This document shows, piece after piece, positions 14,337 to 64,000 of a stretch of 64,000 nucleotides of DNA. Under the pieces are notes generated by a model that saw only the letters and a list, made by a program, of their open reading frames with translations, did not search any database and was not told the DNA's origin. The stretch covers positions 14,308 to 78,307 of the forward strand of contig MHGA01000006.1 of the NCBI GenBank assembly GCA_001804415.1, read 5' to 3'. The first letter of the stretch is position 1, and every line of letters begins with the position of its first letter. Source of the stretch: Candidatus Aquivivens invisus (GTDB taxonomy: Bacteria > Omnitrophota > Gorgyraeia > Aquiviventales > Aquiviventaceae). Position numbers and translations under genes: made by a program.

Positions 14337-14343
14337 CCCTTCC

Positions 14344-15195: not shown

Positions 15196-15216
15196 CGGCG
15201 CTCCTTATCCAATCTA

Positions 15217-15245
15217 TTGATAATATACATTCTATATAGTATAAT
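15217..15245 (+). promoter_or_regulatory. Canonical sigma-70 promoter TTGATA-17nt-TATAAT upstream of phd/yefM antitoxin
   Basis: -35 TTGATA 15217-15222, 17-nt spacer, -10 TATAAT 15240-15245, SD GGGAGGGAGAGG before ATG 15285; AT-rich island. Confidence 0.7.
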
Positions 15246-15284
15246 CATATTAGTGGAATTGAGTTGGTAGCAGGGAGGGAGAGG

Positions 15285-15983: not shown

Positions 15984-16219
15984 AACGTACAAAACGCGAA
16001 GTGGCGGACATCATTGACTCATTTTTATCAGGCGAGGGAGAGGAGTGGGACTGGGATGATTTTACCAGCATTCCAATTCACGATCCCGAGTTAAACAGAA
16101 TTCGTCTGAGGTGCGTTCAACTCGACAAAGAATTTCCTCCAGAGAAACGTGGCGAGTATTGTAATGCTCATGGAATGGACGTGTTGCGGGATTATGTGAA
16201 GCGATTACGGACGAAATAG
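15979..16219 (+). CDS. Small acidic hypothetical protein in low-GC island (80 aa)
   Basis: ATGA overlap with vapC stop; markedly AT-rich codon usage. Confidence 0.4.
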
Positions 16220-16226
16220 AGATCTG

Positions 16227-18548: not shown

Positions 18549-18574
18549 CCGACCGCCTTCAGCGCCGCGCGCGG

Positions 18575-19702
18575 ATGTCGAGAGCAGAGGCGCTGAAGCT
18601 CTTTGAGGCACGCGATCTCATCGGCCTCGGGCAATTGGCGAACGAGGTCAAGCAAGCCACATGGGGCGATCGCGCCCACTTTGTGATCAACCGCCAGATC
18701 AACCCTACGAACGTCTGCGTCCTGTCCTGCCGGTTCTGCGACTTCGCGACCAAGCGGGGACGCCCTAACGCCTACGAGATGACGATCCAGGACGTCTTAG
18801 ATCGCCTCAGCCCGGAGCTGCGGGAAGTCCACATCGTGCAGGGGCTGCATCCGGACTGGACGTGGGATTTCTACCTGGAGATGCTCCGCGCGATCAAGAC
18901 GAGCTTCCCCCGGATGCAGATCAAAGCCTGGACGGCGGTTGAGATTGACTATTTCTCCAAGAAGTTTCGCCTCTCGGTCGAAGAGGTCCTGGTGCAGATG
19001 AAGGAGGCGGGGCTCTCCGCCTTGCCCGGCGGGGGCGCGGAGGTGTTTTCCGAACGGGTGCGCAAGGCGCTGTTTCCCTTTAAAATCGGCGCGCCGAGGT
19101 GGCTGGAGATTCACCGGATCGCGCATCAGCTGGGCATCCCGACCAACGCGACCTTGCTGTACGGCCACATCGAGACGCGCGAAGAACGCGTGGATCACCT
19201 CCTGAAGCTTCGCGAACTCCAGGATGACACCGGCGGCTTCATGAGCTTCATCCCGTTGGCGTATCAAGTCGGCAAGACGCGCGTGGTCGAGCGCCAGGCG
19301 TCGGCGATCGAGGACCTCAAGACGATGGCGATCTCCAGGCTGCTCCTGGACAACATCCCCCACATCAAAGCCTACTGGGTGACGATGGGTGAAGAGACGG
19401 CGTCGATCGCCCTGAACTTCGGGGCCGATGATCTCGACGGGACGATCGGGGAGGAGCGGATCATGCATGCCGCGGATGCCGCAAGCCCGATTCGGCAGAC
19501 CCGCGAGCGGCTGGTGGAACTCATCCGAGCCTCCGGATGCGTGCCGGTGGAACGCGATGCCCTCTATCACGAGGTCGCGGTGTGCGACCCTTCGACTCGC
19601 GCCACGGCCTCTGGCCGTGGGCTCGCTCAGGATTCCGCCCCACGGGCGCAGGAAGAGGTGCCACGGGCTCTGCCCGTGGGGCTCCACAATGGCCACCGGT
19701 AA
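18575..19702 (+). CDS. Radical SAM menaquinone biosynthesis enzyme, MqnC/MqnE family (paralog 1; alternative start 18524); about 45-aa C-terminal extension encoded by hairpin repeats
   Basis: NPTNVCVLSCRFCDFA cluster motif, CofG/CofH-like fold. Confidence 0.75.
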   Translation: MSRAEALKLFEARDLIGLGQLANEVKQATWGDRAHFVINRQINPTNVCVLSCRFCDFATKRGRPNAYEMTIQDVLDRLSPELREVHIVQGLHPDWTWDFYLEMLRAIKTSFPRMQIKAWTAVEIDYFSKKFRLSVEEVLVQMKEAGLSALPGGGAEVFSERVRKALFPFKIGAPRWLEIHRIAHQLGIPTNATLLYGHIETREERVDHLLKLRELQDDTGGFMSFIPLAYQVGKTRVVERQASAIEDLKTMAISRLLLDNIPHIKAYWVTMGEETASIALNFGADDLDGTIGEERIMHAADAASPIRQTRERLVELIRASGCVPVERDALYHEVAVCDPSTRATASGRGLAQDSAPRAQEEVPRALPVGLHNGHR

Positions 19703-19736
19703 AGTCAGAAGTCAAAAGTCAGAAGTCGGAAGTACA
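19702..19736. repeat. Tandem heptanucleotide repeat (AAGTCAG)x5 (imperfect) between mqnC/E paralog 1 and mqnA
   Basis: aagtcag aagtcaa aagtcag aagtcgg aagtaca, followed by CT-rich run. Confidence 0.9.
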
Positions 19737-19766
19737 CTTCCCTCTTCCCCCTTCGCTCTTCCCCCT

Positions 19767-20522
19767 TTGACGGTGGCCCGCATTCCGTATCTCAACTGCG
19801 CGCCGTTTTTTGCCGGCCTTCCGCTCAAGCCAGGATGGGAGGTGGTCGACGTTGCGCCCAGGCGTTTAGGCCAGATGGCTGAGGAGGGCAAGTTCTTGGC
19901 GGGCGTGATGTCGCTGGCGGATTACCTGCGGTTGCAGGATCGCTTCGAGCGGATCGGGCCGCTGGGGGTGGCGGTGCGGGGACGGGTGGGCAGCGCGCTG
20001 CTGTTTTCGCGCAAACCCCTTCGGCAGCTGGACGGCGCCTGCGTCGCGGTGACGGACGAAACGTCGACGACCGCCCTGTTGCTTCGCGTGATCCTGGAAC
20101 AGCGTTACCACCTGACGGTTCGACTCGCGCCGCACGCCCACCCGACCCAGCAGGATGCTGACGCGGTGCTGCTGATCGGCGATGAGGCCTTGCGGTTTGG
20201 CAGCGTCAACCGGCTCTATCCGTTTGAGATTGATGTCGCCTTTGAATGGTGGTTGTGGCAGCATCTGCCCTGCGTCTTCGCCGTGTGGGCGATCCGCGCG
20301 GACGCCGGCGCGAGCACCAAGCGGGAGGTGAGCGAAGCCCTCCAGCGCACCCTGGCGGTCAACCTGCGTCGCCTCGATGAGCTCGTCATCCAACCGGCTG
20401 CCTCCCTGCACGTTCCGGCCGAGGACCTCACGATGTATCTGAGCCGGTTCATCTATCGTCTCAGCGCCGAGGAGGAGCGCGCCATCCAGCGCTTCGCCCA
20501 ACTGTCCCAATCCATGGCATGA
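19767..20522 (+). CDS. mqnA: Chorismate dehydratase MqnA (start uncertain: TTG 19767/GTG 19773, or ATG 19689 if heptamer tract is translated)
   Basis: RIPYLNCAPF MqnA signature, PF02621-type fold. Confidence 0.75.
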   Translation: MTVARIPYLNCAPFFAGLPLKPGWEVVDVAPRRLGQMAEEGKFLAGVMSLADYLRLQDRFERIGPLGVAVRGRVGSALLFSRKPLRQLDGACVAVTDETSTTALLLRVILEQRYHLTVRLAPHAHPTQQDADAVLLIGDEALRFGSVNRLYPFEIDVAFEWWLWQHLPCVFAVWAIRADAGASTKREVSEALQRTLAVNLRRLDELVIQPAASLHVPAEDLTMYLSRFIYRLSAEEERAIQRFAQLSQSMA

Positions 20523-21604
20523 GCCCCGTCTGCTGCGACTCGCTCGAGGAGAAGGTGTTCGCCGGGGAGCGGCTGACGCGCGAGGAAGGCCGCTCCCTCT
20601 TGCAAGACGCCTCCCTCCTTGAGCTAGGTCAGCTCGCCAACTCCGTGCGCTCCCGCCACAATCCCGACCCCGCCGTGACGTTTGTGATCGACTCGAATCC
20701 GAACTACACGAATGTGTGCATCACCGACTGCGTCTTCTGCGCGTTCTACCGCAAGCCCGGCTCGAAGGACGGCTATGTCCTGACGGTGGACCAAGTCATG
20801 GAGAAGGTCCGTCGGGCCGTTGAGTTGGGGGCGACGACCGTCTTGCTGCAAGGAGGGCACAACCCGCAGATTCCCCTCAGCTATTACCTGGCGTTGGTCT
20901 CCGAAACCCGCCGCCGGTTTCCGCAGGTGACCCCGCATTTCTTCACCGCCTCGGAAGTGACGACGATGGCGCAGGTCTCCGGGCTGCCGATCGGCGATGT
21001 GCTCAGACAGCTCAAAGACGCGGGGCAGTCCACCTTGCCGGGCGGGGGCGCGGAGATCCTCTCCGATCGCATTCGGCGGAGGCTCAGTCCGAAGAAAGGC
21101 GGAGCCGAGGCGTGGTTATCGGTCCATCGCGAAGCGCACCGCCTCGGCTTCAAATCGACCGCGACCATGATGTTCGGTCACCTCGAGGACGACGACGATC
21201 TCCTCCAACACCTTGAGCACATCCGCGGGCTGCAAGATGAGACGAGAGGGTTCACCGCTTTTATCCCGTGGAGCTTCAAGCCCGGCAACACCCCGCTCGA
21301 GAAACCGATCCCGCATCACGCCGACCCAACCCGTTACCTTCGGATCATCGCGCTCTCGCGACTCTACCTCGACAACGTCCCGCACATCCAGGCTTCCTGG
21401 TTCTCTGAAGGCAAGAAGACCGGCCAGGTCGCTCTGCACTTCGGGGCCGACGATTTCGGAGGGACCTTGTTCGAGGAGAACGTGCACGCCGCCACCAACT
21501 TTATCAACACAACGAGCGTTGAGGACCTCGTCACCGTGATCCGTGAAGCGGGATTTCGGCCGGTTCAACGCACCACGTTGTACGAACGCATCAAGGAGTG
21601 GTAA
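20519..21604 (+). CDS. Radical SAM menaquinone biosynthesis enzyme, MqnC/MqnE family (paralog 2)
   Basis: NYTNVCITDCVFCAF motif; ATGA overlap with mqnA. Confidence 0.75.
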   Translation: MSPVCCDSLEEKVFAGERLTREEGRSLLQDASLLELGQLANSVRSRHNPDPAVTFVIDSNPNYTNVCITDCVFCAFYRKPGSKDGYVLTVDQVMEKVRRAVELGATTVLLQGGHNPQIPLSYYLALVSETRRRFPQVTPHFFTASEVTTMAQVSGLPIGDVLRQLKDAGQSTLPGGGAEILSDRIRRRLSPKKGGAEAWLSVHREAHRLGFKSTATMMFGHLEDDDDLLQHLEHIRGLQDETRGFTAFIPWSFKPGNTPLEKPIPHHADPTRYLRIIALSRLYLDNVPHIQASWFSEGKKTGQVALHFGADDFGGTLFEENVHAATNFINTTSVEDLVTVIREAGFRPVQRTTLYERIKEW

Positions 21605-47083: not shown

Positions 47084-47431
47084 TTATGGGACAGCGCTGG
47101 ATTCTTCCCAGAAGACGAACTCGGGCTGGATGACCGGCTCGTAGTCAGGCGGGGCCGGAAAGGGGAACGTGAAGAACTCGTAGAACCCTGCGGCGGTCCG
47201 GACGAATCCGTGGCCCATCCCGCGCAGCAGCCCCCACGTGAGCCCGGCCGCCATCCCTTCGGTGTTGGAGGTCTCGGCGATGCGTTTGGGGATTTCGACC
47301 CACCCCGTGATGATGTTCGCGAGGCCTCGACCCAACTTGGTCGTCGGGCTGGCAGCGTGACTGAGGGAGGGAACGCTCAGGAAGGCAATCGTCAGGAAGG
47401 TCAGGGTCCGTGCAGCTTGCGACCGTGACAT
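47084..47431 (-). CDS. Small secreted protein, paralog family member
   Basis: Signal peptide; [18 protein letters not shown]...TFPFP. Confidence 0.6.
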
Positions 47432-47487
47432 GCGCGTACTGTAGCATGAGCAGCCTCCGAACGCAAGCGCTTGTTATAATAGGGAGG

Positions 47488-49635
47488 ATGCGAAGGAAAG
47501 AGTGGCTCTTGGTGATCATGGTCGGGGGGATCGCCGGTGCCATCTGGTTGGCCGGCACACGTCCCTGGCCGCACACGGAGTCAGTCCCTATGGTGCAGGA
47601 ACATCCGGGTCGTCAGCCGAACCGTCTCATTAAGGAAAAGAGTCCCTACCTCTTACAACACGCCTACAACCCGGTGGCCTGGTATCCGTGGGGCGACGAG
47701 GCGCTCGCCACAGCTGCGCGTGAGGACAAACCCATTCTCCTGTCGATCGGCTACTCCACCTGCTACTGGTGCCATGTGATGGAGCAGGAGTCGTTCGAAG
47801 ATCCGGAAATCGCCCGGCTCATGAACGAGTGGTTTGTATCCATCAAGGTGGATCGGGAGGAGCGGCCTGATCTTGACGCCCTGTACATGACGGCAGTGCA
47901 GGCGATGTCGGGGCAGGGCGGATGGCCCATGACCGTCTTTCTGACTCCCGAGGGCAGGCCGTTCTGGGGCGGGACGTATTTCCCCCCCGAGGACGCGTAC
48001 GGTCGTCCGGGATTCAGGACGGTCCTGCGCTCGATCCACGAGGCCTGGCAAGCCAAACGCGCCGATCTCCTGGCCACCAGCCAATCAATCACCCAAGCGC
48101 TCCAAGCCGAGACCCAGCGCCTGACGACGGTGCCGTTAACGCGCGAGACCCTCCAGGAGGCGGTTGCGCAGTTGAGCGCCCAATACGATCCCGACCACGG
48201 CGGATTTGGACCGGCCCCGAAGTTCCCCCGACCGCACGCGCTCTCCTTCCTCTTGCGCGTGTGGTATCGGGATCGTGACCCCAAGCCCTTGGAGATGGTC
48301 GAGACGACGCTTCAGGCGATGGCTCGCGGCGGCATCCACGATCATCTCGGCGGCGGGTTCCATCGGTATTCCACCGACGAGCGGTGGCTCGTCCCCCATT
48401 TCGAGAAGATGCTCTACGACCAAGCCTTGTTGGCCCTGGCGTATCTTGAGGCGTTTCAGATTACCGGCAAGGCCGACTACGCGCAGGTCGCCCGAGGCAT
48501 CTTCACCTATGTGCTGCGCGATCTGCGCGATCCGCAGGGGGCCTTCTTGTCCGCAGAGGACGCCGGCGAGGTCGGCAAGGAAGGGGAGTTTTACGTGTGG
48601 AGTCCATCACAGGTTGAGGCCGTCTTGGGAGTGGAGGGCGCGGCGCCGTTCAACCAGGCGTATGACGTGACTGACCAGGGAAATTTTGAGGGGCATAGCC
48701 TCCTTCACCTGAACCAACAGTTATCAGCCGTTGAGCACCTTGCCTTGGCACGCGCCAAGCTGCTGCAAGAGCGCAACCGGCGCCCGAGGCCGCACCGTGA
48801 CGACAAGATCCTCACCGACTGGAACGGCTTGATGATCGGCGCGCTGGCCTATGGCGCGAAGGCACTTGGGGAACCGGCTTACGGCGAGGCGGGCGCAGGC
48901 GCCGCGACGTTTCTTCTCGATCGACTGCAGCGTTCGGGGCAACTGCTCCACCGCTATCGGGACGGCCAGGCCGAGATCCACGCGTTTCTTGATGACTACG
49001 CGTTCCTCAGTTGGGGGTTGCTTGCGTTGTATGAGGCCACGGGTGAGGCGCGCTGGCTGTCGGAGGCCAAACGACTGATGACGCAAGCGCTGCCACTCTT
49101 CTGGGACGATGCCGCAGGCGGGTTGTTCCTGAGTGGTGCTAAGAATGAAACCCTGATCGCCCGCACCAAGGAGCTGTACGACGGCGCGATTCCGTCAGGC
49201 AACTCAGTGGCCGCCCTGGTGTTGGTGCGCTTGAGTCAACTGACCATGGACGAAGCGATGCAGGACAAGGCGAAGCGGCTCATTGAAGCCTTTTCGGGAG
49301 AGGTCGCCCGCGCTCCGCACGCGTTTCCCCAATTTCTGATCGCGGTGGACGGATGGCTGGGTCCCTCGCAGGAGATCGTCATTGCGGGTGATCCCGATGC
49401 CCCGGCGACCCGCCGGATGCTGGAGCACGTCCACCGCCGGTTCCTGCCTCGGGCCTCGGTCGTCTTGCATCCACCAGGGGAAGCGGGCCGGACGATTGAA
49501 TCGCTCATCCCCTTTGTGGCCAATCAGGTCCAGCTCAACGGCCAGCCCACGGCCTATGTGTGTGAGAACTACCTCTGCAAGCTGCCGACGACGGATGTGG
49601 CAAAGCTGGTGGAACTGCTTGATGCGATCCGGTGA
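47488..49635 (+). CDS. Thioredoxin-domain protein YyaL/DUF255 with six-hairpin glycosidase-like domain
   Basis: [12 protein letters not shown] thioredoxin-like motif, about 715 aa. Confidence 0.8.
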
Positions 49636-56700: not shown

Positions 56701-56880
56701 GGGCCTGGGGCGGAGACGCGCATCCCGATGGCGGTCGCGGTCATCGGCGGGGTGCTGCTCTCAACCCTCCTGACCTTGTTTGTGGTGCCGTGCGCGTATA
56801 GCCTCATCCCTGAGAAAAACAAAGGCCCTTGGGGATTCCCAAGGGCCTTGTCGATTGCGCAGGAAGCAAAAGGCTATTGA
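53758..56880 (+). CDS. RND efflux transporter (AcrB/CzcA superfamily)
   Basis: 1040 aa, 12-TM RND topology with two large periplasmic loops. Confidence 0.85.
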   Translation: MTLSDLSIKKPVFAWMLMAGLIVFGTISFKRLGVSQMPDVEFPVVSVDLRWEGAAPEVMETDVVDVTEDVITSIQGIRDISSSIRQGQATITIEFDLERDIDVAVQEVQTKLAQAQLRLPRELDPPIVTKVNPQDQPIMWLGVSGDVPKRELMEYVQDHLKDQFQTISGVGEIFLGGFLERNLRVWIDADKLEVAQLTIEDVITAIQREHAELPAGRLETGAKEFNVRAMGEASSVEEFGRILIPSRGGQPIYTPIALKDVAVIEDGLADQRRISRIMGETAVGLGIRKQRGANDVEVARRVRRKMAEVAQRLPQGIQLGVNFDRTRFIEDSINELTFTLILSAILTSLVCWAFLGSWSATLNILMAIPTSIVGSFICLYFLGFTLNTFTLLALSLAIGVVVDDAIMVLENIVRHREQGLARIEAARLGARQITSAALAATLSIIAIFLPVAFMAGLIGKFFFEFGMTISIAVALSLLEALTLAPMRCAQFLRIGERRTQFGKAVESAFRILAVRYHAALIWSLRNRRMVLLASAAIFVVSLGVLPWLRKEFVPPQDQSMFLVRLQTPVGSSIEFTDEQFKLAEQFAMSRPEIKRYFGAIGGFGGGEVNAGILFITLHPPRQRRIVPPDRHPLSQRELMALFRKELNAIPDVKASIQDLSLSGFSAQRGFPIEFSIRGPDWEQLGVIAQEMERRMSRNPLMVDVDSDYLTGVPEVRVRPDRRQAAARGVSMATIARTINALIGGERVAKYTRGGRRYDVRVRLMPTQRLQADDIERLWVWNRHGELVQLKDIVTITENPSLLTITRKNRERAISVFSNIAPGRSQAEALREVQRIAKDVLPQGYHAVFGGSAQTFRESFQSLLFVLWLGVLVAYMVLASQYNSYLHPVLVLLALPFSVSGALMALWVGGQSLNIYSFIGLILLMGIVKKNSILLVDFTNQLREQGQGVHEALLNACPMRLRPILMTSISTVAAAVPPALAVGPGAETRIPMAVAVIGGVLLSTLLTLFVVPCAYSLIPEKNKGPWGFPRALSIAQEAKGY

Positions 56881-57212
56881 AGGAGCTGCGTCCCGCCTTC
56901 CGGAAGGGGGACGTCGATCTGCGGGATGGGGAAGGTTGCCACGTGCAACGCCCCGCCGACGGTCTGCCCGATGCCGTTGAAGAGCCCTTCGCCGATGCCG
57001 AGGAAGAAGTTCCCTCCACCCTGGATGGCTTCCGCCGGTTCGCTGAAGATCTCCGTCCAGCCCAGCAGCCCGTTCTTGAGGCCGTAGACGAACTTGCCCT
57101 TTACCTTGCCAAGATAGTCCACCTCTTGCGTCCACGGGCTTGCCGCAAACGCCGCAATGGGCGCTGCCACCAACGCGAGGACCACTGCGATTGCCCCTAA
57201 CCGTCTGGTCAT
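56874..57212 (-). CDS. Small secreted protein, paralog family member
   Basis: Signal peptide; GKFVYGLKNGLLGWTEIFSEPAEAIQG...VGGALHVATFPIP. Confidence 0.6.
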   Translation of the reverse strand: MTRRLGAIAVVLALVAAPIAAFAASPWTQEVDYLGKVKGKFVYGLKNGLLGWTEIFSEPAEAIQGGGNFFLGIGEGLFNGIGQTVGGALHVATFPIPQIDVPLPEGGTQLLQ

Positions 57213-57348: not shown

Positions 57349-58221
57349 ATGAAACGGGTGTTGGTCGTCTACAAGAAAAGCGCCTATCAGCTCCACGTGG
57401 TGGAGCGGAAGGATCCGTGGCTGAGGCGGCTGCTGCGAGCGAGTCACCCCGATGCCCTCGACTGGCTCGCGGCCCACCGCGTGCAACAACGCACCCTCGA
57501 TGCCGTGGTGCGCAGCCTGCGCAGCCTCGGCGTGCGGGAGACCCTGGTCTATCGCGAGCGCCTTCGGCCCGCCACCGGCTACGATCTGGTGCTGAGTGTG
57601 GGAGGCGACGGGACGGTGCTGCAGGCCTCCCACTTCATGAAGGACACGCCGCTCCTGGGCGTGAACTCAGATCCGACGCGCAGTGAGGCCGTGTTCTGCG
57701 CGGCCACCGCCTCGGACGTCCATCGAGTCGTGCGGGACGCGTTGGAGGGCCGGCTGCCCGCGCTCTTGCTCTACCGCTTGGCCGTTGCGCTCAACGGCCG
57801 GCGGCTGGGTCCGTTAGCGCTCAATGACGTGCTGATCGCCCATGAGGATCCCGCCACGATGAGCCGCTATCGCCTGCGGCTCGGCGCCCGGTGTGAAGAT
57901 CACAAGAGTTCAGGATTGTGGGTGGCCACCGCCGCGGGCTCCAGCAGCGCGATGGCCGCGGCGGGAGGAAGGCGCCTGCCCTGGGGGGCCAAGCGGTTTC
58001 AGTACCGGCCTCGCGAGCTGTACCAGGGGCGCTTGACCCGTTGTCGCCTGACAGGCGGGCAGCTTTCGCCCCCACGGTGTCTTGAGTTGGTCTGGTTGAT
58101 GCGGGAGGGTGCGGTCTTTCTCGACGGGCCGCATCTCAAACACCGACTGCGATTCGGGGATCGGGTGACGGTGTCGCTCTCGCCGCAACATCCATTCCGC
58201 GTGCTGGGCTTACGCCGATGA
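57349..58221 (+). CDS. nadK: NAD kinase
   Basis: GGDGT motif, NAD kinase fold. Confidence 0.8.
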   Translation: MKRVLVVYKKSAYQLHVVERKDPWLRRLLRASHPDALDWLAAHRVQQRTLDAVVRSLRSLGVRETLVYRERLRPATGYDLVLSVGGDGTVLQASHFMKDTPLLGVNSDPTRSEAVFCAATASDVHRVVRDALEGRLPALLLYRLAVALNGRRLGPLALNDVLIAHEDPATMSRYRLRLGARCEDHKSSGLWVATAAGSSSAMAAAGGRRLPWGAKRFQYRPRELYQGRLTRCRLTGGQLSPPRCLELVWLMREGAVFLDGPHLKHRLRFGDRVTVSLSPQHPFRVLGLRR

Positions 58222-58228
58222 GACAGAG

Positions 58229-58336
58229 CGACAAGCGACAAGCGACAGGTAACAAGTCGAACAGGCCTACTCGAGGGCAGCTTCCTCTGTTGTGGTGTTG
58301 CCTTGTCGCTTGTACCTTGTCGCTTGTCCCTGTCCT
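58229..58336. repeat. Inverted arrays of heptamers (CGACAAG)x3-5 ... 37-nt spacer ... (CTTGTCG/CTTGTMC)x5 between nadK and memo-ammecr1
   Basis: Read directly; ATG 58218 (overlapping nadK TGA) is in frame through the array with the downstream gene. Confidence 0.9.
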
Positions 58337-58367
58337 TGAGGTCACGGCGGAGCCGCGAAGCGCCCGC

Positions 58368-59735
58368 GTGGCCGGGGCGTTCTATCCCGATGACCCTGCC
58401 GTCTTGCGCGCGACGATTGAGCAGCTCCTCGCGGGCCACGACGGCGCACCGGCATCGCCCGACAAGCCCCGCATACTCATCAGCCCCCACGCCGGCTACC
58501 CCTATGCGGGGTCAGTGGCCTCCCGCGCCTTCCACGAGGTCCAGGGGCGTGCCTATGATGGAGTCGTCGTCGTGGGCTTCACACACCGCTTGAACTTCGA
58601 GGGTACCTCCGTCGAGACCCGCGACGCCTACCACACGCCGCTGGGTCCCATCCCCGTCGACACGGAGGCCGTGGAGTTCCTGCAGGCGCAACCCGGCATC
58701 ACGCACGTCGAGGAGGCGCATGAGGCCGACGAGCACTCGATGGAGGTGATGCTGCCGTTCTTGCAGGTTGCCTTAGGCGAGTTCCGGGTGGTCCCGATGC
58801 TGATGGGCCGCCATGATTTCTCAGACGCCCAGGAACTGGCCGCGGCCCTGGCGCAGTTGGCGCAGCACGGCGAGTATCTGTTCGTGTTCAGCACCGACCT
58901 CTCCCACTACCATCCGTACGACGAGGCGAAACGGCTCGATGACCAGACCGTCAACCTCATCCTGCGCGAAACCGCGGGGGCGGTTGATCGGCTCTTCTCC
59001 CAGGGCCACCTGGAGGCGTGCGGTCGGGGGCCGGTGGTCGCCGGGTTGCTGCTCGCCCAACGGTTCGGCTATCTGGAGCGTCGGTTGCTCCTCTACGCGA
59101 ATTCGGGCGATACGACGGGTGAGGCGAGTCGCGGGGTCGTGGGGTATGCCGCCATCGGGATGTATCCGCCGAAGACGTCCGCGTCGGTGGAGACGGTGTC
59201 CCGCGACGCGGGGATGGCGCTGGTGCGCGCGGCCCGGCAGGTCATCACCGCGAAACTTCAACCCACCCCCTCGACCGAGGCCGTTGCGCTGGACGTGTTT
59301 CCTGAGCTGCAGCAAGCGCGCGGCATGTTCGTGACGCTGCGCAAGCACGGGGAGTTGCGCGGCTGCATCGGCCGCATCGAGACAGACGAGCCGATGGCCT
59401 CGCTGCTGCCGACCGTCTCGGTCGAAGCGGCGCTGGCGGATACGCGCTTCCTGCCTGTGACTGCGGAGGAGCTGGACGACATCACCGTCGAAGTCTCCGT
59501 CCTGAGCCCGCCGGCACCGGTCAGCTTCCAAGACATCGTCGCCGGGCGTGACGGGGTGGTGCTGCGGAAGGACGGCCGCAGCGGGGTGTTCCTGCCGCAG
59601 GTCTGGACAGAGAGCGGCTGGACGAGGCTGGAATTCTTACGCGAGCTGGCCCACCAGAAGGCCGGGCTCCAGCCGGATGCCTGGCAATCCGCGCAGCTGT
59701 TCACCTTCCAGGATCAGGTGTTTGAAGAACACTGA
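58368..59735 (+). CDS. Fused MEMO1-like (AmmeMemoRadiSam protein B-type) and AMMECR1 (protein A-type) protein; GTG start 58368, alternative ATG 58218
   Basis: N-terminal VAGAFYP...ISPHAGYPYAGSVASRAF (MEMO), C-terminal FVTLRKHGELRGCIGRIE (AMMECR1). Confidence 0.7.
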   Translation: MAGAFYPDDPAVLRATIEQLLAGHDGAPASPDKPRILISPHAGYPYAGSVASRAFHEVQGRAYDGVVVVGFTHRLNFEGTSVETRDAYHTPLGPIPVDTEAVEFLQAQPGITHVEEAHEADEHSMEVMLPFLQVALGEFRVVPMLMGRHDFSDAQELAAALAQLAQHGEYLFVFSTDLSHYHPYDEAKRLDDQTVNLILRETAGAVDRLFSQGHLEACGRGPVVAGLLLAQRFGYLERRLLLYANSGDTTGEASRGVVGYAAIGMYPPKTSASVETVSRDAGMALVRAARQVITAKLQPTPSTEAVALDVFPELQQARGMFVTLRKHGELRGCIGRIETDEPMASLLPTVSVEAALADTRFLPVTAEELDDITVEVSVLSPPAPVSFQDIVAGRDGVVLRKDGRSGVFLPQVWTESGWTRLEFLRELAHQKAGLQPDAWQSAQLFTFQDQVFEEH

Positions 59736-61015
59736 TTCGTCTGGCAGGCGGTGTTGCGGTGGAAGAGGAAGCGGCGCGCCGCCACCCAATCGTAGGCTCG
59801 TACGCCGACCCAGCGTGCGCCGGGGAGGTACAGCAGCGGCACAAGCCACCACAGCAGCACGAGCCGGACGCTGATCCGGCGAAACGCGTCAAACCCCTCC
59901 GCGATCCTCCCGTACGGCTCCACCAGTTGCATGCGACTCTGGCAGCCCTCCCGAGTCAGCGACGGGTGGATGGCGCGTAGATCCGCGACCCCGTGAAAGT
60001 CAATCGGCTCCAGCCGACCGAACAGGTCAAGCGCGAACAGCCGCGCAACACTCGCCAGGCAAAATCCGCATCGTCCGTCGTAGAGCAGGCGGATCCGCCC
60101 GCGCTGCGCATGACGGGTTCTCCGCCGTTCAATCCACCGCACGAGGGTTTCCGGCTCGACGAACAGCAGCAGCTGCGGGGGAAAGAGGAAGAAGAAGATC
60201 GTCGGCACATGGAGGGTCACCAGCAGCAGCACGTGAAAGCTGACACCCCACAGCAGCGCGAAGGGGCGCGTGCGCCGGATGAAGAGCAGGAACGGCAGGG
60301 CGAATTCCCCCGTGATGACCACCAGCTCAATCCACTGGCACACCTCAGGCTGCCCCGCCAGCCATGCGCGGAAGGGGAACTGTCGCACCACACCCTGCGG
60401 CGGGTAGCGCAGAAGATAGTAGTATGGGTTGTCGGTGAGCCAGTTGCCTCCGGCGGTGATCTTGCTCAAGCCGGTGTAGAGAAAGGTCCAGGCGATCTGC
60501 AATTGCAACAGCCGCTGCACGAAAAACGGCCGGAGGCGTTTGTACGCATGGGCGCCGGCTCGGTCGCCGCGCAGGAAGCTGTCGACCGAGAGGAAGTCGC
60601 CGGGGTAGCTCGTGACGTACATCAGCGAGAGTGTGACCAGCAAAATGTCAAATGACAGCGTGCCGATGTGGAGGGAATTGAGCGCGTAAAAGTAGTAACA
60701 GGACACTCCCATGAGGAGGCAGCTTGCCTGGGTATTGAGGCCGATCAGCACGCAGGCCCAGGAGCCGCCGAAGAGCCCGACGAACGTCCACACCAGCCAG
60801 TCGGGACTTTGCTCGATGAGCTGCAGGGCCCAGAGCGGGAAGAACGAGCCGTTCTTCTCCTTGAAGGCGGTGGCGAGGTAATTGTCCTCCATCTGAAAGA
60901 ACCCGGGGAACAGATGAGCCCCGACCGTGATCGCCACCGCGATCCGGAACAACCCCAGGCTGAGCGACGGTCTCTCGACCAAGAACGCCTTGTGCCACCA
61001 CGCTCTCACGGACAT
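59714..61015 (-). CDS. HTTM-domain (vitamin-K-dependent gamma-carboxylase-like TM domain) protein fused to a DCC-family thiol-disulfide oxidoreductase (DUF393) domain
   Basis: N-terminal LGLFRIAVAITVGAH HTTM; C-terminal LLYDGRCGFC DCC motif. Confidence 0.65.
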   Translation of the reverse strand: MSVRAWWHKAFLVERPSLSLGLFRIAVAITVGAHLFPGFFQMEDNYLATAFKEKNGSFFPLWALQLIEQSPDWLVWTFVGLFGGSWACVLIGLNTQASCLLMGVSCYYFYALNSLHIGTLSFDILLVTLSLMYVTSYPGDFLSVDSFLRGDRAGAHAYKRLRPFFVQRLLQLQIAWTFLYTGLSKITAGGNWLTDNPYYYLLRYPPQGVVRQFPFRAWLAGQPEVCQWIELVVITGEFALPFLLFIRRTRPFALLWGVSFHVLLLVTLHVPTIFFFLFPPQLLLFVEPETLVRWIERRRTRHAQRGRIRLLYDGRCGFCLASVARLFALDLFGRLEPIDFHGVADLRAIHPSLTREGCQSRMQLVEPYGRIAEGFDAFRRISVRLVLLWWLVPLLYLPGARWVGVRAYDWVAARRFLFHRNTACQTNQCSSNT

Positions 61016-61449
61016 CGGTACATGACCTGCCGTTGAATCTCGTCCGGACGATTCGCAAGGTCCGGATGCGCCGCGTAGACCACCGTGAAACCGTCATACT
61101 GAGGAAACTTTCGCCGCAGGTATCGGCAGAATCGCGGCGCGTCGTGCAAAGAGAGCACGCTGATGAGGACGTTACGGTGAATGTTGTCGTACCAGACAAA
61201 GCGGGTTTCAAAAATCTCGTGGGGATCGATCAGAGACGGCTGGCCGTGCTTGAGGCCGTAGACCTCCGTGAACCCGTAGGAGCGGTCCACGTTGAAGAAC
61301 ATGATCCAGCCAGCCGGCGGGTACAGAAATTTCAGCTTCGGCAGCTCCCGCCCGATGAGGGGGCTGAGGTAGTTCAGGCGGAGGGTCTCGTAATGGAAGA
61401 CGGCGATCCAGAGGATCACGAATCCACTGATCCAGACATGGCGTCGCAT
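61006..61449 (-). CDS. Hypothetical membrane-anchored protein co-transcribed with HTTM-DCC gene
   Basis: ATG 61449; N-terminal TM; 10-nt overlap with downstream gene. Confidence 0.4.
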   Translation of the reverse strand: MRRHVWISGFVILWIAVFHYETLRLNYLSPLIGRELPKLKFLYPPAGWIMFFNVDRSYGFTEVYGLKHGQPSLIDPHEIFETRFVWYDNIHRNVLISVLSLHDAPRFCRYLRRKFPQYDGFTVVYAAHPDLANRPDEIQRQVMYRCP

Positions 61450-61471: not shown

Positions 61472-61512
61472 GGAAAAAGAAAACGGCCCCGCGCTCGCAA
61501 GAGCGCAGGGCC
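61472..61512 (-). terminator. Intrinsic terminator of cspA (GGCCCUGCGCUC-UUGC-GAGCGCGGGGCC plus UUUUCUUUUUCC)
   Basis: Read on minus strand directly after cspA stop. Confidence 0.7.
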
Positions 61513-61531
61513 GCTTCCGGCGAGCCCAACG

Positions 61532-61735
61532 CTAGGCGGCCTTCGTCACGTTGGCAGCCTGAGGACCTTTCGGTCCTTGGGTGACCTCGAACTCCACCTG
61601 TTGGCCTTCCTGAAGGCTGCGAAAGCCGTCAGCTTTGATGGCGCTGTGATGGACGAACACGTCCTTCGACCCGTCCTCCGGGGTGATGAACCCATACCCC
61701 TTCTGGTCGCTGAACCACTTCACGGTACCCTTCGC
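61532..61735 (-). CDS. cspA: Cold-shock protein CspA family
   Basis: [18 protein letters not shown]..., RNP motifs; long 5' leader. Confidence 0.9.
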
Positions 61736-62032
61736 CATGCTCCGTACACCCCCCTTCATTTTCGGTCACACAACTTACGTTTCCGCCAAACCACTCGGCG
61801 GATCCGCCAAGTCTTGTGGCGGACGCTGTCGCTCCGTAAGTGACGGCCTCAAATGAAAAAACCGCTGGACGACCGAACAGATCGCCCTGCGGTTTCCCCA
61901 ACCAACTACTTCTGGATCAACGCCTTCCCGACGTTCAGAAGGGCGCATAGACACTGTAACTATATCAGGACGGTGAGGTGGTTGTCAAGGACATGTTTGT
62001 CGGCGGAGAGGCATAGTATATAATGAACGGTC

Positions 62033-64000
62033 ATGTCGAACGGCGAACACGAGCCTCTGAAGGCGTTGTACGCCGGCCTGGCCCAGCGGCACGCGGCGCT
62101 GCGCAAGCGGTTGGGCCGCCCGCTGACGCTGGCCGAGAAGATTCTCGGCGCGCACGCGGCGGATGCCGAGACACAGGCCTTCGCCCGCGGCACCAGCTAC
62201 CTGACGCTGAAGCCCGATCGGGTGATCATGCAGGATGCCACCGCCCAGATGGCGATCCTCCAGTTCATGCTCGCCGGCCGAGACGCCGTGGCGGTGCCGA
62301 CGACGGTCCACTGCGATCACCTCATCCAGGCGCGCGTCGGAGCCTCCGGCGACATGCAGGCGGCGCTGGACGCCAACCGCGAGGTGTATGACTTCCTCCG
62401 CTCCGCGTCCCAGCGCTACGGGATGGGCTTCTGGCAGCCGGGGGCGGGCATCATTCATCAAGTGTTCCTGGAACAGTACGCGTTTCCCGGCGGGCTGATC
62501 ATCGGGACGGACTCGCACACCCCCAATGCCGGCGGCCTGGGGATGCTGGCGATTGGCGTGGGGGGATCGGAAGCGGCCGACGTGATGGCCGGGCTGCCAT
62601 GGGAAGTCAAATGCCCGAAGCTCATCGGCGTGCGGCTGACCGGACGCTTAAGCGGCTGGACCTCGCCGAAAGACGTCATCCTGAAGGTCTGCGGCCTCCT
62701 GACGACGAAAGGCGGTACGAACAAGATCCTCGAGTATTTCGGGGCCGGCACGCGCTCCATCAGTTGCACGGGCAAGGCGACGATCACGAACATGGGCGCG
62801 GAGCTGGGTGCGACCACCTCGGTGTTTCCGTTCGATGAGCGGATGAGCACGTATCTGCGCGCCACCGGCCGCGCCGGCGTGGCGGATCTGGCGCAGCGAC
62901 ACGCCGAGGACCTGGGAGCGGATCCGCAGGTCCAGGAGGACCCCCGGCGGTTCTACGACGAGGTCATTGAGATCGACCTTTCTTGGCTTGAGCCGCACAT
63001 CGTCGGGCCTCGTTCGCCCGACGTCGCGAGGCCGATTTCGCAATTGGCGAAGGACGTGGAGCGCGGCGGCTGGCCGCCCCAGATCAACGTTGCGCTGATC
63101 GGCAGTTGCACCAACTCCTCCTACGAAGATATCGGCCGCGCCGCCTCGGTGGCCCGGCAGGCCCGGCAGGCCGGCCTCAAGGCGAAATGCTACTTCCTGA
63201 TCACGCCGGGGTCGGATCAGATCTACGAGACGATCCGGCGCGACGGGCAGCTCGAAGCGCTGGAGGCGATCGGCGGCACGGTATTAGCGAATGCCTGCGG
63301 GCCGTGCATCGGCCAGTGGAGGCGCGATGACATCGCGCCCGGCGAAGTGAACTCGATCCTCACGTCGTTCAACCGCAACTTCCCGCGCCGCAACGACGGC
63401 ACCGCCGAGACGCTGGCGTTCATGGGCAGCCCAGAACTTGTGACCGCGATGGCGCTGGCGGCGGACCTGCGGTTCAATCCACTGACCGACTCGGTGGACA
63501 CGCCCGATGGACGCCGCGTGAAGCTGAGCCCTCCGGAGGCGCCGGAGCTGCCGTCCAACGGCTTTGCGCGCGGCATGGCGGGCTGCTTGCCGCCCCTGCC
63601 GCAGGCGGAGCGCCGGACGATCAGCGTGCTGGTGCCGCCGGGTAGCGAGCGGCTGCACGTATTGGAGCCGTTTCGGCCATGGAACGGGCGTGACTTCGAG
63701 CGCCTGCCGGTGTTGATCAAAGTCCGGGGGCAGTGCACCACCGACCACATCTCCCCGGCGGGGAAGTGGCTGCGGTTCCGCGGTCATCTGGATCGGATCA
63801 GCGACAACATGTTCACCGCCGCGGAAAACGTCTTCACGAAACACACCGGCATGGCGATCGATCAGCTCGATGGAAACGAGAAGCCGATCCCAGAGGCGGC
63901 GCGCCACTACAAGGCGGAGGGCTTGGGGTGGGTTGCCGTCGGCGATGAGAACTACGGGGAGGGCTCCAGCCGCGAGCACGCGGCCATGTCACCCCGGCAT
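62033..64000 (+). CDS. acnA: Aconitate hydratase (mitochondrial-type/AcnA-like), N-terminal 656 codons; continues beyond window
   Basis: Own translation: RVIMQDATAQMA, GSCTNSSYED, ANACGPCIGQW cluster-ligand motifs; not in ORF track because no stop within window. Confidence 0.85.
   Translation, partial: MSNGEHEPLKALYAGLAQRHAALRKRLGRPLTLAEKILGAHAADAETQAFARGTSYLTLKPDRVIMQDATAQMAILQFMLAGRDAVAVPTTVHCDHLIQARVGASGDMQAALDANREVYDFLRSASQRYGMGFWQPGAGIIHQVFLEQYAFPGGLIIGTDSHTPNAGGLGMLAIGVGGSEAADVMAGLPWEVKCPKLIGVRLTGRLSGWTSPKDVILKVCGLLTTKGGTNKILEYFGAGTRSISCTGKATITNMGAELGATTSVFPFDERMSTYLRATGRAGVADLAQRHAEDLGADPQVQEDPRRFYDEVIEIDLSWLEPHIVGPRSPDVARPISQLAKDVERGGWPPQINVALIGSCTNSSYEDIGRAASVARQARQAGLKAKCYFLITPGSDQIYETIRRDGQLEALEAIGGTVLANACGPCIGQWRRDDIAPGEVNSILTSFNRNFPRRNDGTAETLAFMGSPELVTAMALAADLRFNPLTDSVDTPDGRRVKLSPPEAPELPSNGFARGMAGCLPPLPQAERRTISVLVPPGSERLHVLEPFRPWNGRDFERLPVLIKVRGQCTTDHISPAGKWLRFRGHLDRISDNMFTAAENVFTKHTGMAIDQLDGNEKPIPEAARHYKAEGLGWVAVGDENYGEGSSREHAAMSPRH

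What the first reader, a model, noticed from the sequence alone, without database searches (positions are those of the whole stretch)
59714..61449. HTTM (gamma-carboxylase-like) domain fused to a DCC thiol-disulfide oxidoreductase, with a coupled membrane partner, in a menaquinone-producing genome
The N-terminal HTTM polytopic domain is the membrane core of vitamin-K-dependent carboxylase/epoxidase. Here it is fused to a DUF393/DCC domain with a CGFC motif, and it overlaps by 10 nt with an upstream 147-aa membrane-anchored protein. In an organism that makes menaquinone via the futalosine pathway, a quinone/thiol redox role (vitamin-K-epoxide-cycle-like) is an attractive and untested function.
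Basis: partly seen in the sequence, partly recalled or inferred. Interest (0 to 1): 0.55.

Follow-up and report, generated by a model that had tools for sequence, protein, structure and literature searches.

The report
Split bacterial vitamin-K-carboxylase-like membrane enzyme
This is a real, tightly coupled two-gene unit in a groundwater bacterium: a membrane enzyme built like the core of the human vitamin-K-dependent carboxylase and fused to a thiol-redox domain, plus a small membrane-anchored partner from an undescribed protein family; what it acts on is unknown.

Summary
ORF A (59714-61015, minus strand, 433 aa) carries Pfam HTTM and DCC1-like domains, both above their curated cut-offs. 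It overlaps the upstream 147-aa ORF B (61006-61449) by 10 nt.

From charge distribution and homology, the DCC domain (invariant DGRCGFC plus a C-terminal CxTNQC) is inferred to be cytoplasmic, and B's domain periplasmic.

B lies directly upstream of A in 48 of 49 related loci. It belongs to a small closed family with no Pfam model and no significant match among solved structures.

Futalosine-pathway menaquinone genes are in the window but about 38 kb away, and are never next to the pair in 54 related loci. The conserved neighbour is instead a signal-peptide-bearing Memo-AMMECR1 fusion (37 of 45 assessable loci).

An August 2026 preprint proposes a vitamin-K-dependent carboxylase role for an analogous DUF5819 + HTTM-DCC pair in a Firmicute, so the general idea is not new.

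Verdict: a new variant of a known kind. A menaquinol-dependent GGCX-like mechanism with a built-in thiol reductase is plausible but unproven.

The parts
61006..61449 (-). ORF B, 147 aa: single-pass membrane-anchored partner. N-terminal helix, then a small alpha/beta domain inferred to be periplasmic. It belongs to a family with no Pfam model.
   Evidence: ORF list and sequence. 451 homologues. Closed family of 47 representatives among 1.84 billion proteins. No Pfam or NCBIfam hit, even at E<=10, for 16 diverse members. AF2 model pLDDT 77.7. Directly upstream of A in 48 of 49 loci.
61354..61443 (-). B residues 3-32: N-terminal transmembrane helix, preceded by MRRH (inferred N-in, C-out). It ends in the conserved FHYE..LR..YL motif.
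   Evidence: AF2 helix 3-32. The only hydrophobic peak in B. F18, Y20, R24 and L28 are invariant.
61297..61320 (-). B residues 44-51, PPAGWIMF: the most conserved motif of B, modelled with low confidence in the monomer. Candidate loop that caps the quinone pocket of A, analogous to GGCX loop LL9 (inference).
   Evidence: Invariant in 38 close homologues. G47 invariant and W48 nearly so across the whole family. pLDDT <50 for residues 42-53. Role of LL9 and Met401 from PMC12647623.
61006..61015 (-). 10-nt overlap between the stop codon of B and the start codon of A (ATGTCCGTGA), indicating translational coupling.
   Evidence: Sequence. The B-to-A spacing in related loci is mostly between -26 and +150 nt.
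59714..61015 (-). ORF A, 433 aa: HTTM (GGCX-like) polytopic membrane domain fused to a DCC-type CxxC domain.
   Evidence: Pfam. 509 homologues, the best 120 covering at least 91% of the query. AF2 model pLDDT 76.2, pTM 0.72.
60152..60961 (-). HTTM domain (residues 19-288), modelled as eight helices. It carries K185 (60461-60463), W192, E237 (60305-60307), F260 and F274, which align to GGCX K218, W223, D263, F286 and F299.
60101..60154 (-). Basic amphipathic linker PETLVRWIERRRTRHAQR (residues 288-305). It marks the cytoplasmic side and sits where GGCX has its TM8-TM9 cytosolic loop.
   Evidence: Charge count, hhalign register, coordinates.
59765..60088 (-). DCC1-like domain (residues 310-417) with the invariant motif DGRCGFC (60059-60079). 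The secondary structure is thioredoxin-like, followed by hydrophobic C-terminal helices.
   Evidence: Pfam PF04134, 61 bits. Invariant D313, C316 and C319. beta-alpha-beta-alpha-beta-beta-alpha pattern with block-mean pLDDT 79-93. Only weak glutaredoxin/thioredoxin-fold matches.
59729..59746 (-). C-terminal CQTNQC (residues 424-429), lying beyond the Pfam DCC model: a second conserved cysteine pair and a candidate relay pair (inference).
   Evidence: C424 and C429 are invariant in 26 homologues and present in 37-38 of the 39 family members that have a residue at these positions.
61479..61518 (-). Intrinsic-terminator-like hairpin (18-bp stem, 12 G-C pairs, T-run) between the csp gene (61532-61759) and B. 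It sets the 5' boundary of the B-A unit.
58218..59735 (+). Convergent neighbour, 505 aa: Memo + AMMECR1 fusion (AmmeMemoRadiSam system proteins B and A) with an extra N-terminal signal-peptide-like segment of 46 residues. Its 3' end overlaps A by 22 nt. Possibly functionally linked to the pair.
   Evidence: Pfam and NCBIfam. Lies within 1.5 kb of the B-A pair in 37 of 45 assessable loci, in three different arrangements. N-terminal signal-like segments are seen across nearly all full-length homologues.

Best explanation
B and A together form a split bacterial counterpart of the vitamin-K-dependent carboxylase (GGCX).

Shown:
- A's HTTM domain has the GGCX transmembrane fold.
- Family-conserved residues align to the GGCX residues that hydrogen-bond and deprotonate the hydroquinone (Lys218, positioned by Trp223; Asp263, here a Glu), sandwich the naphthoquinone ring (Phe286) and stack on CO2 (Phe299).
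- B is an obligate, translationally coupled partner.

Inferred:
- A has eight helices with both ends in the cytoplasm, and its active-site lysine sits at the periplasmic end of helix 5.
- B inserts N-in/C-out. Its helix plays the role of GGCX TM9, its invariant PPAGWIMF loop the role of the pocket-covering loop LL9, and its small disulfide-bonded domain forms a minimal substrate-binding cap.
- The complex binds menaquinol, which this organism makes by the futalosine pathway. It uses menaquinol oxygenation to generate a strong base that modifies an extracytoplasmic substrate, either by carboxylation or by another proton-abstraction-driven reaction.
- The fused cytoplasmic DCC domain (CGFC plus the C-terminal Cx4C pair) uses cytoplasmic thiol reductants to return the oxidised quinone or quinone epoxide to the quinol. 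It would thus act as a built-in functional analogue of VKOR.
- The substrate is unknown. The best candidate is the co-localised exported Memo-AMMECR1 protein, or whatever that protein acts on.
For: - Pfam HTTM and DCC1-like hits both exceed their gathering scores.
- hhalign pairs K185/W192/E237/F260/F274 with GGCX K218/W223/D263/F286/F299. The human sequence was verified as 100% identical to the PDB chains. The roles of these residues come from PMC12647623 and PMC13486548.
- These residues are present in 43-45 of 45 family members, including the variants that lack DCC.
- B is upstream of A in 48 of 49 loci, often overlapping it.
- B has two invariant cysteines and an N-terminal anchor.
- Positive charges cluster on the proposed cytoplasmic loops and on the linker before the DCC domain.
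- The DxxCxxC motif is invariant and a second conserved Cys pair follows it.
- Menaquinone biosynthesis genes and complex I subunits are in the same window.
- Independent precedent: an AF3 model of a DUF5819 + HTTM-DCC pair resembles whole GGCX, with menaquinol placed beside the equivalent Lys/Trp/Phe (bioRxiv 10.64898/2026.08.19.745780).
Against: - No activity, substrate or complex has been shown for this family.
- The hhalign alignment to GGCX has only 34% probability (single-sequence template). A profile of the family did not reach GGCX in a sequence search of the PDB.
- GGCX N290 has no equivalent in this alignment, and the N159/H160 equivalents (N113/H116) are offset.
- The DCC domain is absent from four related loci, so it is not indispensable in cis.
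- The chemistry needs O2, and nothing here shows the organism meets oxygen.
- No mqn gene is near the pair in 54 loci.
- The topology is inferred, not measured.
Confidence: 0.5

Rival explanations
1. A transmembrane thiol-quinone oxidoreductase that works like DsbB or VKOR rather than like a carboxylase. The HTTM domain serves only as a menaquinone-binding scaffold. Cysteine pairs pass electrons between periplasmic client proteins, the quinone pool and cytoplasmic thiols. The pairs would be B C108/C146, A C106/C226 near the periplasmic face, and the cytoplasmic CGFC and Cx4C. No oxygenation or strong-base chemistry is involved.
For: - There are many conserved cysteines on both sides of the membrane.
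- The DCC family is named as a thiol-disulfide oxidoreductase family.
- In three divergent loci (L016, L024, L033) a DsbA-like thioredoxin gene and a MauE/DoxX membrane-protein gene sit on the same strand just upstream of Memo-AMMECR1, B and A.
- A bacterial VKOR fused to a thioredoxin-like domain is an established precedent (my own knowledge; not checked here).
Against: - The specific GGCX quinol-deprotonation constellation (Lys, Trp, acidic residue, two Phe) is nearly invariant. A pure electron-transfer role does not explain that.
- The membrane domain has no CxxC.
- B's two cysteines are 38 residues apart, which looks more like a structural disulfide.
- C106 is replaced in 5 of 45 members.
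Confidence: 0.2
2. An SdpA/SdpB-like maturation or export system for a secreted peptide or toxin. In Bacillus subtilis, a small protein (SdpA) and an HTTM membrane protein (SdpB) are needed to produce the SDP cannibalism toxin. HTTM proteins also occur in linaridin gene clusters.
For: - The gene order is the same: a small protein followed by an HTTM membrane protein.
- HTTM proteins in RiPP clusters are reported in PMC9927463.
- SdpAB is known from the literature (my own knowledge; papers listed).
Against: - Neither protein gave any NCBIfam hit, nor any Pfam hit to an SdpA or SdpB family.
- None of the neighbour families recurring in five or more loci is a precursor peptide, immunity gene or transporter.
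- The pair is single-copy and embedded among housekeeping genes (csp, aconitase, an NAD-kinase-like gene) across a whole lineage. That looks like core physiology, not an accessory toxin island.
Confidence: 0.1
3. A membrane-lipid or quinone-modifying enzyme that retains epoxidase chemistry but has no protein substrate, as proposed for giant-virus gamma-carboxylase-like epoxidases fused to desaturases. B and the DCC domain would tune or regenerate the cofactor.
For: - The lumenal carboxylase and propeptide-binding domain of GGCX (PF22777) is absent.
- Viral truncated HTTM proteins keep K218 and carry a Glu at position D263, exactly as here (PMC13486548).
Against: - No lipid-modifying domain or gene is fused to the pair or conserved beside it.
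- The equivalent of the CO2-stacking Phe299 is invariant.
Confidence: 0.1

Closest known systems
[quoted passage not shown]
   Same: - Conserved residues align to K218, W223, D263 (as Glu), F286 and F299.
- Inferred: the N-terminus is cytoplasmic and the active site faces away from the cytoplasm.
   Different: - A lacks TM9 and the roughly 350-residue lumenal region (LL9, clamps A and B, C-terminal domain; Pfam PF22777) that binds the propeptide and the glutamate.
- Here a separate 147-aa protein may supply a minimal version of that region, but no homology to it is detectable.
- A DCC thiol-redox domain occupies the position of the GGCX cytosolic TM8-TM9 loop.
- Sequence identity is only 14-20%.
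DUF5819 + HTTM-DCC1-like pair of Melghirimyces thermohalophilus (A0A1G6IAS5 / A0A1G6IBF2), AF3 model in bioRxiv 10.64898/2026.08.19.745780
   Same: - Two adjacent genes: a small protein with an N-terminal TM helix plus one domain, and an HTTM-DCC fusion of about 440 aa.
- A conserved Lys/Trp/Phe triad sits around a modelled menaquinol.
- The proposed role is a bacterial vitamin-K-dependent carboxylase-like complex.
   Different: - The partner here is not DUF5819. No Pfam hit appears at E<=10 for 16 diverse members, and an exhaustive profile search finds only a closed family of 47 representatives.
- The phylum is different (Omnitrophota-type MAGs rather than Firmicutes).
- A conserved exported Memo-AMMECR1 neighbour is present here.
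- No complex model could be made here.
MloH (Streptomyces malonomycin biosynthesis) and other single-chain bacterial GGCX orthologues
   Same: Bacterial HTTM enzymes that use GGCX-type chemistry. MloH carboxylates an aspartyl residue (cited).
   Different: - In MloH the HTTM region and the region corresponding to DUF5819 or the lumenal domain are in one chain, without a DCC domain.
- MloH sits in a biosynthetic gene cluster, which is not the case here.
VKOR / DsbB quinone-dependent thiol oxidoreductases, including VKOR-thioredoxin fusions
   Same: Both couple a membrane quinone site to CxxC thiol chemistry. The DCC domain, with two Cys pairs, could play VKOR's role of regenerating the quinol (inference).
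   Different: - There is no sequence or fold relationship.
- The CxxC motif here is in a soluble, probably cytoplasmic domain, not in a four-helix membrane bundle facing the periplasm.
SdpA/SdpB of Bacillus subtilis
   Same: A small protein gene is followed by an HTTM membrane protein gene.
   Different: - No SdpA or SdpB model matches either protein.
- There is no toxin precursor or immunity gene nearby.
- SdpB has no DCC domain (my own knowledge).

Membership tests
HTTM / GGCX-like vitamin-K-dependent carboxylase-epoxidase superfamily (PF05090) | Match to the HTTM profile above the curated cut-off | tested here: met
   55.7 bits against a cut-off of 27.7; residues 19-288 cover profile positions 8-257 of 259.
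HTTM / GGCX-like vitamin-K-dependent carboxylase-epoxidase superfamily (PF05090) | GGCX-type fold of the transmembrane domain | tested here: met
   [not shown]
HTTM / GGCX-like vitamin-K-dependent carboxylase-epoxidase superfamily (PF05090) | Catalytic lysine (K218) with its stacking Trp (W223) and the adjacent acidic residue (D263) | tested here: met
   K185, W192 and E237 align to these positions. They are present in 44/45, 43/45 and 43/45 family members. A Glu at the D263 position retains partial activity in human GGCX according to PMC13486548. Caveat: the hhalign probability is only 34%.
HTTM / GGCX-like vitamin-K-dependent carboxylase-epoxidase superfamily (PF05090) | Aromatic residues under the naphthoquinone ring (F286) and at the CO2 site (F299) | tested here: met
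   F260 and F274 align to these positions and are invariant in alignment A1. Their roles are taken from PMC12647623.
HTTM / GGCX-like vitamin-K-dependent carboxylase-epoxidase superfamily (PF05090) | Lumenal domain (PF22777: LL9 loop, Y395, clamps) required for glutamate carboxylation and propeptide binding | tested here: not met
   [not shown]
HTTM / GGCX-like vitamin-K-dependent carboxylase-epoxidase superfamily (PF05090) | Quinol- and O2-dependent epoxidase or carboxylase activity | not testable with these tools
   This needs biochemistry.
DCC thiol-disulfide oxidoreductase family (PF04134, DUF393) | Match to the DCC1-like profile above the cut-off | tested here: met
   61 bits against a cut-off of 27.8; residues 310-417 cover profile positions 1-109 of 113.
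DCC thiol-disulfide oxidoreductase family (PF04134, DUF393) | DxxCxxC motif | tested here: met
   D313-G-R-C316-G-F-C319 is present in all 41 family members that have the domain. That DxxCxxC defines the family is from my own knowledge (Ginalski et al. 2004); it was not re-read here.
DCC thiol-disulfide oxidoreductase family (PF04134, DUF393) | Thioredoxin-like fold and thiol-disulfide exchange activity | tested here: inconclusive
   The secondary-structure order beta-alpha-beta-alpha-beta-beta-alpha, with block-mean pLDDT 79-93, fits a thioredoxin-like fold. Matches to glutaredoxin and thioredoxin structures are only weak (E 0.58; Foldseek E > 1). Activity cannot be tested here.
DUF5819 / SdpA-type partners of HTTM proteins | Sequence match to the DUF5819 or SdpA models | tested here: not met
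   B and 15 diverse relatives give no Pfam family at E<=10, and B gives no NCBIfam family. A profile search of 1.84 billion proteins found only 47 representatives, with no remote tail.
DUF5819 / SdpA-type partners of HTTM proteins | N-terminal TM helix plus one small domain, encoded next to the HTTM gene | tested here: met
   AF2 helix 3-32 followed by an alpha/beta domain. B is upstream and on the same strand in 48 of 49 loci.
DUF5819 / SdpA-type partners of HTTM proteins | Predicted physical complex in which the partner's helix packs on the HTTM bundle and a loop reaches the quinone pocket | not testable with these tools
   Only single-chain prediction was available, and AFDB fold libraries were offline.
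SdpAB-type toxin maturation system | Adjacent precursor peptide (SdpC-like) and immunity or regulator genes | tested here: not met
   The neighbour families recurring in 54 loci are Memo-AMMECR1, an NAD-kinase-like protein, a cold-shock protein, aconitase, a GTPase and a PPIase. None is a peptide precursor or an immunity gene.
AmmeMemoRadiSam system (for the neighbouring gene at 58218-59735) | AMMECR1 (protein A) and Memo (protein B) components | tested here: met
   TIGR04336 at 241 bits and TIGR04335 at 164 bits, both above their cut-offs, in a single polypeptide.
AmmeMemoRadiSam system (for the neighbouring gene at 58218-59735) | Partner radical SAM enzyme encoded alongside | tested here: inconclusive
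   None of the neighbour families recurring in five or more loci looks like a radical SAM enzyme, but not every neighbour was scanned and whole genomes were not available.

The most novel reading that the evidence does not exclude
B, HTTM-DCC and the exported Memo-AMMECR1 fusion form one extracytoplasmic modification machine, joined in some lineages by a DsbA-like protein and a MauE/DoxX protein. In this machine, menaquinol-driven GGCX-type proton abstraction takes the place of the radical SAM enzyme that partners Memo and AMMECR1 in the cytoplasmic AmmeMemoRadiSam system. That would assign a first biochemical context to two long-orphan conserved families, MEMO1 and AMMECR1. It would also reveal a vitamin-K-type post-translational or lipid modification in the periplasm of an uncultured phylum, with its own fused cytoplasmic quinone-recycling reductase.
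Probability: 0.12. Interest if true: 0.8.

Novelty: new variant of a known kind. Interest (0 to 1): 0.5.

Why it matters
Vitamin-K-dependent carboxylation is well understood only in animals, and what the many bacterial HTTM proteins do is essentially unknown.

This locus offers a compact, widely distributed bacterial version. The membrane core carries the residues that align to the GGCX catalytic set. The lumenal part appears reduced to a separate 147-aa protein. A thiol-redox domain is fused on the cytoplasmic side.

If the mechanism holds, three things follow:
- GGCX-type strong-base chemistry would be shown to run on menaquinone in bacteria.
- The complex would be a minimal system for studying how the quinone pocket is capped and how the cofactor is recycled without VKOR.
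- It would point to a periplasmic substrate, possibly tied to Memo and AMMECR1, two conserved proteins with human disease links and no agreed function.

If it does not hold, the locus is still a well-defined member of an uncharacterised but already noticed class.

Tried and rejected
1. B as a detached homologue of the GGCX TM9-to-lumenal region. By eye, GYSWDMMVH, YLNPGVF and CLSRLLPKY in GGCX resemble AGWIMFFNV, LIDPHEIF and CRYLRRKFPQY in B. The tests did not support this: BLASTP E 8, hhalign against human GGCX and hhalign against an 18-sequence GGCX lumenal profile (E 0.28). I keep it only as an untested structural analogy.

2. B as DUF5819 or SdpA. There was no Pfam or NCBIfam hit and no bridging sequences in an exhaustive profile search.

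4. A sequence link from the A family profile to solved GGCX chains. Only a marginal glutaredoxin hit was found. The link rests on the Pfam HTTM model, fold searches and a low-probability hhalign alignment.

5. A search for HTTM-DCC relatives on plasmids, to obtain annotated DUF5819 neighbours. No match was found.

6. A neighbourhood link to menaquinone synthesis. No MqnP, SCO4490-type decarboxylase, MqnE or MqnC homologue occurs in 528 kb of related loci.

7. Co-transcription with the upstream cold-shock gene. This was rejected because a strong terminator lies between them.

8. The longer TTG start for B (164 aa). This was rejected because it lies within that terminator and homologues align from the ATG.

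9. Minus-strand ORFs at 61985-63979. These gave no Pfam hits. The region is an aconitase gene on the plus strand.

10. Literature on DCC/DUF393 function. The library held almost nothing beyond the 2026 preprint.

Full report
**1. What is in the sequence**

On the minus strand, ORF B (61006-61449, 147 aa from its ATG) is followed by ORF A (59714-61015, 433 aa). The two share 10 nt, ATGTCCGTGA.

A matches Pfam HTTM (residues 19-288, 55.7 bits, cut-off 27.7) and DCC1-like (residues 310-417, 61 bits, cut-off 27.8). B matches nothing in Pfam or NCBIfam.

An 18-bp-stem terminator with a T-run (61518-61479) separates B from the upstream cold-shock gene (61532-61759). It also contains the alternative TTG start of B, so the ATG start and a B-A transcription unit are the sensible reading. 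Public assemblies that hold exactly this A protein (43 index blocks, including GCA_001805685.1 and GCA_003528865.1) call the same two products.

On the other side, A's 3' end overlaps by 22 nt the 3' end of a convergent 505-aa gene (58218-59735). That gene fuses Memo and AMMECR1 (AmmeMemoRadiSam proteins B and A) and is itself start/stop-overlapped with an NAD-kinase-like gene (57349-58221).

Further out lie an RND efflux pump, a DUF255 thioredoxin-like protein and an aconitase.

MqnE, MqnC, the SCO4490-type decarboxylase and a UbiA/MqnP-like prenyltransferase lie at 14.1-21.6 kb, and complex I antiporter-like subunits lie at 1.8-6.8 kb.

**2. Conservation and linkage**

A has 509 homologues at E <= 0.001. 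The best 120 are 57-87% identical and cover at least 91% of the query. Those that carry a source name are labelled DUF393 or 'DCC family YuxK' in Candidatus Omnitrophica MAGs. B has 451 homologues, all unnamed or 'hypothetical'.

A scan of one genome per species returned 54 loci. The records are mostly labelled Omnitrophota; some carry Planctomycetes, Elusimicrobia or other names.

B lies directly upstream of A on the same strand in 48 of the 49 loci that have at least 520 nt upstream of A. The estimated spacing is mostly between -26 and +150 nt and is often an overlap, even when the proteins are only about 50% identical to the window's. B and A are therefore an obligate pair.

Four loci (L043, L044, L048, L053) encode an A that stops after the HTTM domain. 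They have no DCC sequence nearby but still have B.

**3. The HTTM half**

A family profile did not reach GGCX by sequence in the PDB, so the relationship is remote.

I recalled the human GGCX sequence and verified it as 100% identical to the deposited chains. I then aligned the family profile to it. A residues 11-299 pair with GGCX 53-327 (hhalign E 4e-4, probability 34%). In that register:
- K185 = K218
- W192 = W223
- E237 = D263
- F260 = F286
- F274 = F299

According to the 2025 cryo-EM work (PMC12647623):
- Asp263 hydrogen-bonds the quinone.
- Phe286 lies under the naphthoquinone ring.
- Phe299 stacks on CO2.

D263E retains partial activity, and giant-virus homologues naturally carry Glu at that position (PMC13486548).

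The five residues are invariant in the 26-sequence alignment. Those checked in 45 family members, including the DCC-less ones, were present in 43-45 of them. GGCX N290 has no counterpart. The N159/H160 pair may correspond to the invariant N113/H116, but the alignment is offset there.

**4. Topology (inferred)**

The modelled helices and the distribution of Lys and Arg put the N-terminus, the 135-164 loop, the IRRTRP turn and the very basic linker PETLVRWIERRRTRHAQR on one side. The conserved loops 41-71 and 188-222 fall on the other side.

The alignment to GGCX agrees with this. K185 ends helix 5 on the non-cytoplasmic side, and the linker falls where GGCX has its Arg/Lys-rich cytosolic loop between TM8 and TM9.

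So the DCC domain is most likely cytoplasmic. B, with MRRH before its only hydrophobic helix, is most likely N-in with its domain in the periplasm.

In GGCX, TM9 is followed by the lumenal loop LL9, whose Met401 covers the quinone ring and contacts Lys218. B's helix is followed by PPAGWIMF, the most conserved motif of the family. That motif is disordered in the monomer model, as expected for an interface element. This equivalence is an analogy, not a demonstrated homology.

**5. The partner B**

An exhaustive profile search of 1.84 billion representative proteins found only 47, with no weak tail apart from fragments. Sixteen diverse members gave no Pfam family even at E <= 10.

Across the family, F18, Y20, R24, L28, G47, D88, C108 and C146 are invariant. 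The two cysteines probably form a periplasmic disulfide (inference).

B is therefore an undescribed family. It has the same gene position and the same gross architecture as DUF5819 or SdpA partners of HTTM proteins, but no detectable sequence relationship to them.

**6. The DCC half**

D313-G-R-C316-G-F-C319 is invariant. The region is modelled confidently (block-mean pLDDT 79-93) with a thioredoxin-like order of strands and helices, followed by hydrophobic helices. Matches to glutaredoxin and thioredoxin folds are only marginal.

Beyond the Pfam model lies a second conserved pair, C424-x4-C429. A CxxC site plus a second cysteine pair recalls the two-pair relays of VKOR and DsbB (my own knowledge), but this is only a lead.

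**7. What is already known**

A preprint of August 2026 (bioRxiv 10.64898/2026.08.19.745780) models a DUF5819 protein with an adjacent 447-aa HTTM-DCC1-like protein from Melghirimyces thermohalophilus.
- The complex resembles whole GGCX, with the DUF5819 helix matching a GGCX TM helix.
- Menaquinol is placed next to a conserved Lys/Trp/Phe triad.
- The authors suggest a bacterial vitamin-K-dependent carboxylase system of different specificity.
- They also note that MloH fuses the two parts in one chain.

The HTTM-DCC architecture and the general hypothesis are therefore already in the literature as predictions. Nothing has been tested experimentally for this class.

**8. Surroundings that bear on function**

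No menaquinone gene lies within +/-6 kb of the pair in any of the 54 loci.

The recurrent neighbour is the Memo-AMMECR1 fusion. It lies within 1.5 kb in 37 of 45 assessable loci, in three arrangements: 29 convergent downstream, 5 divergent upstream and 3 upstream on the same strand. It stays adjacent even where it is only 28-38% identical to the window's copy and the other neighbours have changed.

In the window, the Memo profile starts at residue 47. The preceding segment looks like a signal peptide: basic residues, then LPLLWCCLVACTLSLVPVL, then VTA|EPR. The same layout recurs in nearly all full-length homologues.

An exported Memo-AMMECR1 is unusual, because the AmmeMemoRadiSam system is named for a partner that is a radical SAM enzyme. 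I expect that partner, and the canonical system, to be cytoplasmic (inference from my own knowledge). In L016, L024 and L033 the same-strand series is DsbA-like thioredoxin, MauE/DoxX membrane protein, Memo-AMMECR1, B, A.

These observations point to an extracytoplasmic redox or protein-maturation context. They do not identify a substrate.

**9. Conclusion**

The best-supported reading (about 0.5) is a split, menaquinol-using GGCX-like enzyme. A supplies the quinone and catalytic core facing the periplasm. B supplies the missing helix, pocket lid and a minimal cap. The fused cytoplasmic DCC domain recycles the oxidised cofactor with cellular thiols.

Rivals are a DsbB/VKOR-like thiol-quinone relay without oxygenation (0.2), an SdpAB-like peptide maturation system (0.1) and a lipid- or quinone-directed epoxidase (0.1).

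Its interpretation is reasonable but only partly supported, and its own refutation test (association with quinone biosynthesis) is negative at neighbourhood level and untested at genome level.

I rate this a new variant of a known kind. Its interest is moderate, raised mainly by the undescribed partner family and the unexpected link to an exported Memo-AMMECR1 protein.

Noticed in passing
window 58218-59735 (+); related loci L001-L052: A Memo + AMMECR1 fusion carries about 46 extra N-terminal residues that look like a Sec signal peptide. The canonical AmmeMemoRadiSam system works with a radical SAM enzyme, which I expect to be cytoplasmic, so an exported version is unexpected. It stays within 1.5 kb of the B-A pair in 37 of 45 assessable loci, in three different orientations.
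   Followed up: partly
L016:2775-3849, and the matching genes in L024 and L033: In three divergent loci, a DsbA-like thioredoxin gene and a MauE/DoxX membrane-protein gene sit on the same strand directly upstream of Memo-AMMECR1, B and A. This suggests a periplasmic thiol-redox operon.
   Followed up: partly
L043, L044, L048, L053 (match to A residues about 7-299 only): Some lineages encode the HTTM protein without the DCC domain, and no DCC sequence lies nearby. They still have B upstream and, in three of the four, Memo-AMMECR1 downstream. I could not check whether a stand-alone DCC gene exists elsewhere in those genomes.
   Followed up: partly
window 57349-58221 (+): A divergent NAD-kinase-like gene has a GGDGT motif but only a weak Pfam hit to the N-terminal NAD_kinase domain. 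Its stop codon overlaps the start codon of the Memo-AMMECR1 gene by 4 nt, and it is conserved next to that gene in many close relatives.
   Followed up: no
window 14101-21604 (+): A futalosine-pathway cluster: a UbiA/MqnP-like prenyltransferase, an SCO4490-type UbiD-family decarboxylase, MqnE and MqnC. An unassigned 364-aa ORF (19428-20522) overlaps the end of MqnE and gave no NCBIfam hit.
   Followed up: partly
window 61479-61518 (-): A very strong terminator-like hairpin (18-bp stem, 12 G-C pairs, T-run) follows directly after the cold-shock protein gene at 61532-61759.
   Followed up: yes
window 47410-49635 (+): A 741-aa protein has an N-terminal DUF255/Thioredox_DsbH thioredoxin-like domain plus weak hits to GlcNAc 2-epimerase and GH76 families. 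A related gene also lies downstream of the pair in L016.
   Followed up: no
window 56874-57212 (-): A 112-aa protein with a signal peptide and no Pfam hit, also called as a gene in public assemblies. From memory it resembles the small exosortase-associated TIGR04073-type proteins (GW.EI motif). This was not tested.
   Followed up: no
window 10178-11209 (+): A chlorite-dismutase-family protein, possibly a HemQ-type coproheme decarboxylase, lies next to a ThyX-like gene.
   Followed up: no
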